64,000 nt of DNA, taken from assembly GCF_009914755.1 (NCBI RefSeq), contig NC_060926.1. One strand, 5' to 3'. Source of the DNA: the human T2T-CHM13v2.0 reference genome, Homo sapiens. Position numbers and translations under genes: made by a program. The notes below the pieces were generated by a model. The model was given only the letters and a program-made list of their open reading frames with translations. It was not told the origin of the DNA and ran no database searches. Below, piece after piece: positions 50,392 through 59,634 of this stretch (the first letter of the stretch is position 1; each line of letters opens with the position of its first letter).

Positions 50392-50850
50392 TTAAGAAAC
50401 TGTAAAAAGAAAGAGAAAATAAAATCCAAACAGGAATAGCTCCAGTCTACAGCTCCCAGCATGAGCAATGCAGAAGATGGGTGATTTCTGCATTTCCAAC
50501 TGAGGTACCGGGTTCATCTCACTGGGGAGTGGCAGACAGTGAGTGCAGGACAGCGGGTGCAGTGCACCGAGTGTGAGCCAAAGCAGGTCGAGGCATCGCC
50601 TCACCCGGGAAGTGCAAGGGGTCAGGGAATTCCCTTTCCTAGTCAAAGAAAGGGGTGACAGATGGCACCTGGAAAATCGGGTCACTCCCACCCTAACACT
50701 GTGCTTTTCCAAGGGTCTGCACACCAGGAGATTATATCCTGTGCCTGGCTGGGAGGGTCCTACGCCCACGGAGCCTCGCTCATTGCTAGCACAGCAGTCT
50801 GAGATCAAACTGCAAGGTGGCAGCAAGGCTGGGGGAGGGGTGCCCACCAT
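50392..50850 (-). other. L1 ORF0-homologous antisense ORF
   Basis: MVGTPPPALLPPCSLISDCCASNERGSVGVGPS... matches ORF0 (MAGAPPPASLPPCSLISDCCASN...); lies within the 343-codon open frame 50392-51423. Confidence 0.7.
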
Positions 50851-51425
50851 TGCCGAGGCTTGAGTAGGTAAACAAAGTGGCCGGGAAGCTCGAACTGGGT
50901 GGAGCCCACCACAGCTCAAGGAGGCCTGCCTGCCTCTGTAGACTCCACCTCTGGGGGCAGGGCATAGCCAAACAAAAGGCAGCAGAAATCTCTGCAGACT
51001 TAAATGTCCCTGTCTGACAGCTTTGAAGAGAGTAGTGGTTCTCCCAGCACGCAGCTTGAGATCTGAGAACGGACAGACTGCCTCCTCAAGTGGGTCCCTG
51101 ACCCCCGAGTAGCCTAACTGGGAGGCACCCCCAAGTAGGGGCAGACTGACACCTCCCACAGCCAGGTACTCCTCTGAGACAAAACTTCCAGAAGAATGAT
51201 CAGGCAGCAACATTTGCTGTTCACCAATATCCGCTGTTCTGCAACCTCTGCTGCTGATACCCAGGCAAACAGGGTCTGGAGTGGACCTCCAGCAAACTCC
51301 AACAGACCTGCAGCTGAGGGTCCTGACTGGTAGAAGGAAAACTAACAAACAGAAAGGACATCCACACCAAAACCCCATTTGTACGTCACCATCATCGAAG
51401 ACCAAAGGTAGATACAACCACAAAG

Positions 51426-52439
51426 ATGGGGAAAAAACAGAGCAGAAAAACTGGAAACTCTAAAAATCAGAGCACCTCTCCTCCTCCAAAGGAACGCAGC
51501 TCCTCACAAGCAATGGAACAAAGCTGGAAGGAGAATGACGTTGATGAGTTGAGAGAAAAAGGCTTCAGACGATCAAACTACTCCGAGATTAAGGAGGAAG
51601 TTCGAACCCATGGCAAAGAAGTTAAAACCTTGGAAAAAATTAGACGAATGGCGAACTAGAATAACCAATGCAGAGAAGTCCTTAAAGGACCTGATGGAGC
51701 TGAAAACCATGGCACGAAAACTACGTGACGAATGCACAAGCCTCAGTAGCCAATTTGATCAACTGGAAGAAAGGGTATCAGTGATGGAAGATCAAATGAA
51801 TGAAATGAAGTGAGAAGAGAAGTTTAGAGAAAAAAGAATAAAAAGAAACGAACAAAGCCTCCAAGAAATATGGGACTATGTGAAAAGACCATATCTACGT
51901 CTGATTGGTGTACCTGAAAGTGACGGGGAAAATGGAACCAAGTTGGAAAACACTCTGAGGGATATTATCCAGCAGAACTTCCCCAATCTAGCAAGGCAGG
52001 CCAACATTCAAATTTAGGAAATACAGAGAATGCTACAAAGATACTCCTCGAGAAGAGCAACTCCAAGACACATAATTGTCAGATTCACCAAAGTTGAAAT
52101 GAAGGGAAAATGTTAAGGGCAGCCAGAGAGAAAGGTCGGGTTACCCACAAGGGGAAGCCCATCAGACTAACAGCTGATCTCTCGGCAGAAACTCTACAAG
52201 CCAGAAGACAGTGGGGGCCAATATTCAACATTCTTAAAGAAAAGAATTTTTAACCCAGAATTTCATATCCAGCCAAACTAAGCTTCGTAAGTGAAGGAGA
52301 AATAAAATACTTTACAGACAAACAGATGCTGAGAGATGTTGTCACCACCAGGCCTGCCCTAAAAGAGCTCCTGAAGGAAGCACTAAACATGGAAAGGAAC
52401 AACTGGTACCAGCCACTGCAAAAACATGCCAAATTGTAA
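51426..52439 (+). pseudogene. disrupted L1 ORF1p
   Basis: MGKKQSRKTGNSKNQS start; frameshift near 51640, stop at 51811, and TAA at 52251. Confidence 0.93.
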
Positions 52440-52502
52440 AGACCGTTGAGGCTAGGAAGAAACTGCATCAACTAACGAGCAAAATAACCAGCTAACATCA
52501 TA

Positions 52503-57598: not shown

Positions 57599-57774
57599 GA
57601 CTATTTAAAATTCTTAAAATAATTAATTTACCAAGCACAGCAGGGCTGCAAATTCACTACTGTTAAGAATTCTAATATGTCTTAAATGGTATATTTTAAA
57701 TAAGTTTAAATGTTTATGTGTGCTAAAATATAAATGCCTTCTCTTTATTTTCAGTGGACAGTTGAACACCAGAT

Positions 57775-58417
57775 TTTATTTTATTTTTTTCAACTTAACT
57801 TTAGGGGTACATGTGCAGGATGTGTAGGTTGGTTACATAGGTAAACATGTGCCATGGTGATTTACTACACAGGTCATCCCATCACCCAAGTATTAAGCCC
57901 AGTGTCCATTGGCTATTCTTCCTGATGCTCTCCCTCCACCCCCAACAGGTGCCCAGTGTGTACTATTCCTCCCCATGTGTCCAAGTATTCTCATCAATCA
58001 ACTCCCACTTATAAGTGAGAAAATGCAGCGTTTGGTTTTCTGTTCCTGCGTTAGTTTGCTGAAGATAGTGGCTTCCAACTCCATCCATGTCCCTGCAAAG
58101 GACAGGATCTCATTTCTTGTTATGGCTGCATAGTATTCTATGGTGTATATGTACCATATTTTCTTTATCCAATCTATCATTGACAGACATTTAGGTTGAT
58201 TCCTTTAGGTTGATGACTTTGCTATTGTCAATAGTGCTACAATGAACTTATGCATGCCTGTATCTTTATAACAGACGGATTTATATTCCTTTAAATATAT
58301 ACCCAGTATTGGGATTGCTGGGCCAAATGGTATTTCTGCCTCTAGGTCTCTGAGGAATCACCACACTGTCTTTCACAATGGTTGAACTCATTTACACTCC
58401 CACCAGCAGTGTAAAAG
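57775..58417 (-). mobile_element. 5'-truncated L1 (L1PA8/10-like) 3' end
   Basis: 3' UTR and ORF2 C-terminus (MIDWIKKIWYIYTIEYYAA); TSD gttgaacaccagatttt/gttgaacatcatatttt. Confidence 0.9.
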
Positions 58418-59487
58418 TTGAACATCATATTTTTTAAAACCCTCAAATCTCTCACAGTAGAAAAGGCAATGATTTTGAGCAAAATTCTTATATATTAGTA
58501 TTATCTCTTTACTGTGCTTGTCCATATTTCTTGGCTCAGTACCAAAGCATTTGTTAAGTGAGGGAGGTTTAGCCAGATTGATACTTGTAAGCACAACATG
58601 TGAAATATTATTTCCTGAAATGATATCATCATGAATGACATAATGCTGAAACTCAGACATTCTGAGAGGTAAGTCAGACTGTAGTGTGCTGCTTTAATAT
58701 GGATTGACATTTTCTTCATGGCCCTACTTTTTTAATAGTCTACTCATCATTTCCTTCAATGCATTTTCTTATGGTGGAATGGTTTGGTCTATTATTACTG
58801 AATCTGCACTTATTCTTCTGTATAAATTAAATAACTAAATAAATTACACCATGAAATGAACGTGTCCCTCTCAAAATCAGTACCATGCTCTCTCCAGACT
58901 GGAAGCATTTTGTTTAACATTTTCAGATACAATCCAGGAGCTTTGAGGTCAACTGAGAAGAAAAGGGGAACTGTGCCCCAGTTGAAGCCCAGAATTCTTT
59001 GCATTTGCACCTTGTGAACGCAGAGAGTATAAGAGGCTGGTTAGAGGAACCTGAAGAGAGGTTCCCCATGCATATGAGATAAGGAGCTTTTGGAAGACAA
59101 AGATGACTAATAATTATAGCTAACAGCAGAAATACATATATAATTATATTCACACACAATGTGTATTTGTATGTACATATATACACACATCTATAAATAT
59201 ACATATTCATTTTTGCTTTAAAGATACAGTATTTAAACTTATTTTTGTTTAGATATTTGCTCATCCTCAAATAATTAACAGAGGTTAACATTCAAAGGGA
59301 AAAATGACCTAGACATTCCAATAGATGACAAGTTAATAAAAGCCAATACAAATGTGACTCCTTAAAAATTAATGCCAAAAAAGTTAATGCTATGGCTTAT
59401 TAAAGTAGAAGTAAAATGCTCAGTTCAAGAGTGGTTATAACTATGCTGTGATCAGTTAATTTCTCTGAAGACAATGGGCTCAAGCTA

Positions 59488-59634
59488 CAATTTTGCCAAT
59501 TTTGTTGATATTTTGTAAGAACCGACTTTTGATTTTGTTGCTTTTCTCTACTGTTGTTCTGTTCTCTATTTCATTTATTTCCACTGTGATCTATATTAGT
59601 TCCTTCATTCTGCTTGCTTTGGATTTAATTTTCT
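59488..59634 (-). mobile_element. old L1M ORF2 fragment, inverted continuation of 46985-50430
   Basis: Minus strand agaaaattaaatccaaagcaagcagaatgaaggaactaatatagatc...atcaacaaaattggc continues the L1M ORF2 where it stops at 50430. Confidence 0.85.

What the first reader, a model, noticed from the sequence alone, without database searches (positions are those of the whole stretch)
50414..59634. Swapped target-site duplication: the DNA between two inverted L1s appears to have been flipped
Seen: the + strand L1 starts after AGAAAATAAAATCCAAA (50414-50430) inside an old L1M ORF2, but neither that TSD nor the host L1M follows its poly(A) at 56558. Instead the 17-mer (1 mismatch, AGAAAATTAAATCCAAA, 59634-59618 minus) and the host L1M continuation (GCAAGCAGAATGAAGGAA...) follow the poly(A) of the minus-strand L1. 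Established: recombination between inverted L1s produces inversions and chimeric elements. Inference: at least 56.6-59.6 kb plus both L1 3' ends were inverted, with the crossover inside the shared ~2 kb (54539-56540 versus 59635-63267). The inversion could be lineage-specific or polymorphic.
Basis: partly seen in the sequence, partly recalled or inferred. Interest (0 to 1): 0.8.

Follow-up and report, generated by a model that had tools for sequence, protein, structure and literature searches.

The report
Small inversion between two inverted L1s
Two old L1 retrotransposons lying in opposite orientation on human chromosome 2 have recombined and flipped the roughly 3 kb of DNA between them, an ordinary and already well-described kind of rearrangement.

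Summary

- **First duplication (TSDa).** The 17-base target-site duplication sits before the 5' end of the plus-strand L1 (50414-50430). Its only other copy in the window (16/17) lies reverse-complemented at 59618-59634, directly after the 3' end of the minus-strand L1.
- **Host L1M.** The old L1M continues there, inverted and colinear. Its two pieces overlap by exactly those 17 bases in L1 coordinates.
- **Second duplication (TSDb).** GTTACTTGAACTT follows the left L1's poly(A) at 56586-56598. Its reverse complement sits at window-equivalent 65725-65737, exactly at the far end of the right L1.
- **Conclusion.** Both duplication pairs are swapped and inverted. This is the accepted signature of retrotransposon recombination-mediated inversion (Lee et al. 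2008, PMC2603318).
- **Right L1.** It is a twin-primed insertion and was later split by an SVA.
- **Age and subfamily.** The two L1s belong to one subfamily, each about 2.9% from the majority of related copies.
- **Crossover.** It must lie in the shared 2 kb but cannot be placed from one genome.
- **Open.** No ape or other human sequence was available, so whether the inversion is fixed, lineage-specific, polymorphic or already catalogued is unknown.

It is a clean example of a known mechanism in gene-free DNA.

The parts
49641..50430 (+). Left piece of the ancient host L1M (ORF2 region), ending at the insertion site of the left L1
   Evidence: Aligns to left-L1 coordinates 2303-2970 by blastn, 2332-2956 by tblastx, and 2958-3073 for 50301-50430.
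50414..50430 (+). TSDa, 5' copy (AGAAAATAAAATCCAAA)
50431..56585 (+). Left L1 (near full-length primate L1 with broken ORFs) and its A-rich tail. On the proposed history it is a chimera: the front of L1a joined to the back of L1b.
   Evidence: Sequence. The longest sense ORF is 340 aa. It differs from the majority of 54 related copies at 2.89% of sites.
54539..56543 (+). The part of the left L1 that is homologous, in inverted orientation, to the right L1. The crossover must lie here.
56586..56598 (+). TSDb copy after the left L1's poly(A) (GTTACTTGAACTT). It may extend into the preceding A run, up to 17 bp. Its partner lies outside the window, reverse-complemented, at window-equivalent 65725-65737 (L002 1725-1737).
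56586..59634 (.). Minimal inverted segment (3,049 bp). It holds TSDb, unique DNA, an Alu (about 57305-57633), an old L1 3' fragment (57774-58418, minus), the right half of the host L1M (59481-59617, minus) and TSDa.
59618..59634 (-). TSDa, 3' copy, reverse-complemented (AGAAAATTAAATCCAAA, 16/17)
59635..63267 (-). Right L1, 3' 2 kb in minus orientation, interrupted by the SVA. It has almost no poly(A).
60684..62302 (-). SVA-type insertion inside the right L1. The flanking 15-bp TSD GCTTTTGGTGTTTTA lies at 60669-60683 and 62303-62317.
   Evidence: Sequence. VNTR 61248-61835 by TRF. Alu-like part matches a window Alu.
63268..64000 (+). Twin-primed (inverted) 5' segment of the right L1, in-window part. 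It runs out of the window and continues to window-equivalent 65730 (L002 1-1730). There it ends in the second, reverse-complemented copy of TSDb (65725-65737), whose last 6 bases overlap L1 sequence.
   Evidence: Direct-orientation match of 63268-65730 to 52068-54528, 95.8% over 2473 columns. Junction sequence. End and TSDb.

Best explanation
This is an L1-L1 recombination-mediated inversion.

1. A near full-length primate L1 (L1a, plus strand) inserted into an ancient L1M and made the 17-bp duplication TSDa.
2. A second L1 of the same subfamily (L1b, minus strand) inserted about 3 kb to the right by twin priming and made the 13-17-bp duplication TSDb.
3. The 3' 2 kb of the two elements then lay in inverted orientation. 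They paired within one chromatid, and a crossover inside them flipped everything between the crossover points. At least 56586-59634 was flipped, and at most 54539-63267.
4. This left two chimeric L1s, each flanked by one duplication of each pair.
5. An SVA also landed in the right element; its order relative to the inversion is unknown.

Shown: the four junctions, the swapped and inverted duplications, the colinearity of the L1M halves, and the twin-primed structure. Inferred: the order of events, and that the exchange was a homologous crossover.
For: - **TSDa pair.** It is inverted and flanks different elements. There are only 2 matches in the window against 0.04 expected.
- **TSDb pair.** It is likewise inverted: 56586-56598 (+) is the only match in the window, and L002 1725-1737 (-) is the only match in 8 kb against 0.03 expected. 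The second copy sits exactly at the end of the right L1.
- **L1M halves.** They are contiguous and overlap by exactly the 17-bp TSD.
- **Inverted homology.** It is 2 kb at 95.7-96.1%. Both copies are uninterrupted apart from the SVA, so nothing was deleted.
- **Right L1 was a complete local insertion at TSDb.** Its inverted segment ends at left-L1-equivalent 54528-54530 and its direct segment starts at 54539. Six bases of TSDb (AAGTTC) are shared with the L1 at the internal priming site.
- **Different source copies (weak).** At 4 non-CpG sites the two L1s carry alternative alleles that are both common among 54 other genomic copies.
- **Chimerism (weak).** The left element's combination at these sites (A,C,A,T) occurs in 0 of 38 fully typed copies. 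Both combinations expected before an exchange are common: ACCC 8 with GTAT 6, or ACAC 3 with GTCT 6.
- **Precedent.** Lee et al. 2008 (PMC2603318; Results and the ancestral-state Methods section read) describe this mechanism. They use non-matching TSDs of the breakpoint elements as the criterion and report 21 L1-mediated cases between human and chimpanzee.
Against: - No genome with the un-inverted arrangement was seen, so the inversion is inferred from one haplotype only.
- The crossover could not be located. Of the 129 sites where the two L1s differ over 3.5 kb, nearly all are private changes. Both elements share the same alleles at most subfamily-variable sites.
- The haplotype hint rests on 4 sites. 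A single recurrent change at 56434 would explain it away. The right element's present combination, GTCC, is itself common (8 of 38).
- The right element has almost no poly(A) between its 3' end and TSDa, which is unusual for an L1 insertion.
Confidence: 0.9

Rival explanations
1. A single complex retrotransposition event. L1 endonuclease cut two sites 3 kb apart at the same time, the released fragment was re-joined in reverse, and L1 cDNAs bridged both junctions. No later recombination was needed.
For: Both poly(A) ends are attached to the flipped segment and both 5' ends to the outer flanks, as such a model would also give. The two L1s are equally diverged from related copies, 2.89% and 2.92%, so they could be the same age.
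Against: It needs two simultaneous germline insertions with two full sets of staggered cuts. The 2-kb direct segment and the twin-primed segment of the right L1 abut within about 10 nt on the L1 template. That is most simply explained by one local twin-priming event at TSDb. The two L1s differ at 4 non-CpG sites where both alleles are common among 54 other copies, against roughly 1 expected by my own rough estimate from the counts. This points to different source copies.
Confidence: 0.03
2. Assembly artefact: the segment between the inverted repeats was placed in the wrong orientation in this assembly.
For: Inverted repeats are a classic cause of orientation errors. Only one assembly was examined.
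Against: The repeats are only about 1 kb and 1 kb (split by the SVA) and differ at about 4% of sites, so long reads span and distinguish them easily. This is inference; no reads were examined. The unique segment occurs once in the genome.
Confidence: 0.03
3. No inversion: the 17-mer is simply conserved L1M sequence present in two different, oppositely oriented L1M copies, each hit by its own L1.
For: The 17-mer lies inside L1M ORF2-derived sequence, so any L1M copy has a related stretch.
Against: The left piece ends exactly at the last base of the 17-mer, the right piece starts exactly at its first base, and they share nothing else. The copies are 16/17 identical, whereas the L1M pieces align to the L1 ruler at only 59-68%. 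The independent TSDb pair shows the same swap.
Confidence: 0.01

Closest known systems
Retrotransposon recombination-mediated inversion, L1-RMI class (Lee, Han, Meyer, Kim, Batzer 2008, PLoS One 3:e4047, PMC2603318)
   Same: Two L1s of a young primate subfamily lie in opposite orientation and span both breakpoints. Both are chimeric by inference. The TSDs of each element no longer match but match the partner's. The size (3-8.7 kb) is within their range; their mean L1-RMI size is 3.1 kb for chimpanzee-specific and 14.3 kb for human-specific events. No deletion accompanies it, as in 37 of their 49 loci.
   Different: Inferred from one genome only, with no ortholog in the other orientation. One partner is a twin-primed L1, so only its 3' 2 kb is inverted relative to the other element, while 2.5 kb more lies in direct orientation. 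I could not check whether this locus is one of their 21, because Table S1 was closed.
Human polymorphic inversions mediated by inverted repeats, e.g. HsInv0341 with L1PA3 repeats (Aguado et al. 2014, PLoS Genet, PMC3961182; passages read by term search)
   Same: Inversion of a few to tens of kb bounded by inverted L1PA copies.
   Different: Their table has one chr2 locus, at 241 Mb, not this one. The repeats there are 6.2 kb; here they are about 2 kb, split by an SVA. Polymorphism at this locus was not tested.
Twin priming of L1
   Same: The right L1 has a 3' segment in one orientation and the adjoining upstream 2.46 kb in the other. About 10 nt are lost at the junction, and 6 nt of microhomology link the target overhang to the L1.
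   Different: Twin priming inverts L1 sequence only. It does not explain the flipped host DNA or the swapped duplications.

Membership tests
L1 recombination-mediated inversion (RRMI) | Two elements of the same retrotransposon family, in opposite orientation, span the two breakpoints | tested here: met
   54539-56543 (+) vs 59630-63267 (-), 95.7-96.1% identity.
L1 recombination-mediated inversion (RRMI) | The TSDs flanking each element do not match each other; each matches, in inverted orientation, a TSD of the partner element | tested here: met
   TSDa at 50414-50430 (+) and 59618-59634 (-). TSDb at 56586-56598 (+) and L002 1725-1737 (-).
L1 recombination-mediated inversion (RRMI) | Sequence interrupted by an element continues, inverted, at the partner element | tested here: met
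   L1M halves align to left-L1 coordinates 2958-3073 and 3057-3207.
L1 recombination-mediated inversion (RRMI) | Each element is demonstrably a chimera of the two pre-recombination elements | tested here: inconclusive
   Same subfamily. 129 differences, nearly all private. The left element's four-site haplotype occurs in 0 of 38 related copies, while the inferred parental ones are common. This is a hint only.
L1 recombination-mediated inversion (RRMI) | An orthologous locus or another haplotype shows the opposite orientation | not testable with these tools
   No primate or other human assemblies are held. The supplement of Lee et al. 2008 was closed.
Twin-primed L1 insertion | The 5' part of the element is inverted relative to the 3' part, and the two parts are adjacent on the L1 template with a small gap or overlap | tested here: met
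   Direct part starts at left-L1-equivalent 54539. Inverted part covers 52068-54528/30. Junction at 63267/63268.
Twin-primed L1 insertion | Microhomology between the target-site overhang and the internal priming site | tested here: met
   AAGTTC is shared by TSDb and the L1 at the end of the inverted segment.
SVA retrotransposon | Composite structure (hexamer repeat, Alu-like region, VNTR, SINE-R, poly(A)) flanked by a TSD | tested here: met
   15-bp TSD, T-run at the left end and GGGAGA-type repeat at 62199-62273. VNTR of 37-47-bp units at 61248-61835. Alu-like stretch 61877-62136 matches a window Alu. The SINE-R part was recognised by eye from recall only and was not compared with a reference.

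The most novel reading that the evidence does not exclude
The inversion arose on the human lineage after the split from chimpanzee, or is still polymorphic or recurrently toggling in humans, and is not yet in inversion catalogues. It would then be a new human-specific or segregating balanced variant about 6 kb beyond the 3' end of TSGA10, and one of the few L1-mediated inversions in which one partner is a twin-primed L1.
Probability: 0.25. Interest if true: 0.4.

Novelty: new member of a known kind. Interest (0 to 1): 0.28.

Why it matters
It matters little for biology. The flipped DNA is intergenic repeat-rich sequence between CRACDL and TSGA10, with no annotated gene or element in it according to the hub's table.

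Its value is as a clean, fully resolved example. Both duplication pairs are intact, the host L1M is split, one partner is twin-primed, and there is a later SVA. An inversion can thus be called from a single haplotype, without an outgroup, just by pairing target-site duplications.

If it proved to be human-specific or polymorphic, it would add one entry to inversion catalogues, which are known to miss small repeat-bounded events.

Tried and rejected
**Mapping the crossover**
- I collected 54 related L1 copies from the same genome. One search scored 40 of 17,107 candidates and gave 29 usable loci. One search scored 40 of 5,528 and gave 25 new loci, after dropping L034 and L039 (the locus itself) and L035, L040 and L055 (duplicates of L007, L032 and L005).
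- For L046, L047 and L049 only the longest aligned piece was used.
- The result: same subfamily, differences almost all private, no switch point visible.
- Private-change density does not separate the segments either. Left versus right is 42/45, 28/22 and 31/35 mismatches to the majority in the three segments.

**Further copies**
I did not pursue it.

**Catalogue status**
- A search for TSGA10 / KIAA1211L / inversion found nothing relevant in the 15 titles and abstracts listed, of 18 papers that hold at least 2 of the 3 terms.
- Term searches for chr2, 2q11 and TSGA10 in Aguado 2014, Giner-Delgado 2019 and the 2026 ultralong-read paper gave no hit at this locus.
- Their supplements, and Table S1 of Lee 2008, may list it.

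**Other**
- I considered and rejected chance similarity of the 17-mer and two independent L1M copies (together with TSDb).
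Full report
**What is in the sequence**

The window is T2T chr2:99,386,001-99,450,000 (hub note; confirmed as G000:C2).

- At 50431 a near full-length primate L1 begins on the plus strand. It is directly preceded by AGAAAATAAAATCCAAA at 50414-50430.
- Its body runs to about 56543. An A-rich tail follows, containing a 16-nt non-A stretch, and ends at 56585. Then comes GTTACTTGAACTT....
- At 59635 the 3' end of a second L1 begins, on the minus strand, with almost no poly(A). 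On that strand it is directly followed by AGAAAATTAAATCCAAA (59634-59618) and then GCAAGCAGAATGAAGG....

**Is it more than chance?**

With up to two mismatches, the 17-mer has exactly these two matches in 64 kb. The expectation from 100 shuffles is 0.04, and none of the shuffles reached two.

**The host L1M is split and its right half is inverted**

I used the left L1 (50431-56558) as a ruler for L1 coordinates.

- The old L1M sequence left of the insertion aligns to 2303-2970. Its last 130 bases (50301-50430) align to 2958-3073.
- The reverse complement of 59634-59481 aligns to 3057-3207 (tblastx 3068-3208).
- The two pieces are therefore contiguous, on opposite strands, and overlap by exactly the 17 bases of the duplication.

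It also excludes the idea that the two 17-mers come from two unrelated L1M copies.

**Anatomy of the right L1**

I fetched the 8 kb beyond the window (L002). A self-comparison gave three matches.

| Left L1 | Right L1 | Orientation | Identity | Columns |
|---|---|---|---|---|
| 55493-56543 | 60683-59630 | inverted | 95.7% | 1054 |
| 54539-55507 | 63267-62303 | inverted | 96.1% | 969 |
| 52068-54528 | 63268-65730 | direct | 95.8% | 2473 |

The right element is thus a twin-primed L1.

- Its 3' 2 kb is on the minus strand and the adjoining upstream 2.46 kb is on the plus strand.
- The junction is at 63267/63268, with about 10 nt of the template missing.

The 1.6 kb between 60683 and 62303 is an SVA-type element on the minus strand.

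- It has a T-run at its left end, a VNTR at 61248-61835, an Alu-like part and a GGGAGA-type repeat.
- It is flanked by a perfect 15-bp duplication, GCTTTTGGTGTTTTA, at 60669-60683 and 62303-62317.

- The 13 bases after the left L1's tail (GTTACTTGAACTT, 56586-56598) are unique in the window at up to 1 mismatch.
- Their reverse complement occurs once in the 8 kb beyond the window, at L002 1725-1737, which is window-equivalent 65725-65737. The expectation was 0.03.
- That position is exactly where the right L1 ends. The copy is followed by TTTT, which matches the A-run on the other side, so the duplication may be up to 17 bp.
- Six of its bases (AAGTTC) are also L1 sequence at that point. This is the microhomology expected at the internal priming site of a twin-primed insertion.

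So both duplication pairs are split between the two elements, and each pair is in inverted orientation.

**Explanation**

All four L1/flank junctions are ordinary insertion junctions. Only the partners are exchanged, and the L1 bodies are continuous. The simplest history has four steps:

1. L1a inserts into the L1M.
2. L1b inserts about 3 kb away, in the opposite orientation, by twin priming.
3. A crossover occurs between the inverted 2-kb 3' portions.
4. Everything between the crossover points is thereby inverted.

The inverted stretch is at least 56586-59634 (3,049 bp) and at most 54539-63267. No deletion accompanies it.

This is retrotransposon recombination-mediated inversion as described by Lee et al. 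2008 (PMC2603318; outline, Results part 1, the polymorphism section and the ancestral-state Methods section read).

- They state that after such an event the breakpoint elements are chimeric and their TSDs no longer match, and they use this to call the derived state.
- They found 49 such loci between human and chimpanzee, 21 of them mediated by L1, mostly L1PA.

**Attempt to find the crossover**

I gathered 54 related L1 copies from the same genome (the selection and dropped rows are listed under Tried and rejected).

- Over 3,489 comparable columns the two elements differ at 129 sites.
- With the first panel of 29 copies, nearly all of these sites were private to one or the other element.
- At most sites that vary among the related copies, the two elements carry the same allele. 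They therefore belong to one subfamily.
- Each is about 2.9% from the panel majority: 101 and 102 mismatches. The panel mean is 2.65%.
- From recalled L1 substitution rates, that suggests insertion very roughly 15-20 million years ago. This is an inference, not a measurement.
- No switch point is visible.

One weak, independent hint of chimerism exists.

- At four non-CpG sites (53479, 53890, 55278, 56434) the elements carry alternative alleles that are both common in the panel.
- The left element's combination (A,C,A,T) is seen in 0 of 38 fully typed copies.
- The alleles A and C at the first two sites go with C, not T, at 56434 in 12 of 13 copies (Fisher p = 0.012).
- The combinations expected before an exchange are common: ACCC 8 with GTAT 6, or ACAC 3 with GTCT 6.
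- Against this, the right element's present combination, GTCC, is also common (8 of 38). One recurrent change would remove the signal.

**Rivals**

- *A single complex retrotransposition event bridging two simultaneous breaks.* It would give the same junctions, but it needs two concurrent germline insertions. It fits poorly with the tight template adjacency of the two parts of the right L1, and with the source-level differences between the two elements.
- *An assembly orientation error.* It cannot be excluded here. It is unlikely for 1-kb repeats that differ at 4% of sites.
- *Chance, or two separate L1M copies.* These are excluded.

**What remains open**

The time of the inversion, whether it is fixed, and whether it is already catalogued are therefore unknown.

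- Main-text searches of four inversion papers and one gene-name search found no mention.
- Supplementary tables, including Table S1 of Lee et al. 2008, could not be opened and may well list it.

**Verdict**

The mechanism is well known and the DNA involved has no annotated function. It is a tidy new or uncatalogued member of a known kind, of low to moderate interest.

Noticed in passing
window 60684-62302 (TSD 60669-60683 and 62303-62317): An SVA-type composite retrotransposon on the minus strand is inserted in the right L1, with a perfect 15-bp TSD. At its 5' end, about 29 bases of Alu-like sequence (62274-62302) precede the hexamer repeat, possibly a short 5' transduction.
   Followed up: partly
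window 63267/63268 and L002 1-1737: The right L1 is a textbook twin-primed insertion. A 2.46-kb inverted segment abuts a 2-kb direct segment, about 10 nt are lost, and 6 nt of target/L1 microhomology sit at the internal priming site.
   Followed up: yes
window 59635-59645: The L1 3' end that abuts TSDa has essentially no poly(A): ..TATAATAAA runs directly into the duplication. The other L1 tail (56544-56585) is long and contains a 16-nt non-A stretch between A runs.
   Followed up: no
window 57774-58418 (minus): An older L1 3'-end fragment, about 76% identical to the young L1, lies inside the flipped segment. It could be the 3' end of the same host L1M after internal loss, or a separate element. 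The 1 kb between it and the L1M piece at 59481 showed no L1 similarity by tblastx.
   Followed up: partly
G000:C2:99463824-99464792 (window-equivalent about 77.8-78.8 kb, plus strand; L047): A third L1 of the same subfamily (96% to the right L1 segment) lies about 12 kb further right. By the hub's coordinates it falls inside the TSGA10 span. It is another potential recombination partner.
   Followed up: no
window 50392-51378 (minus): A 328-aa ATG-started open frame runs antisense through the 5' UTR and ORF1 region of the left L1. It is probably a chance frame and was not examined.
   Followed up: no
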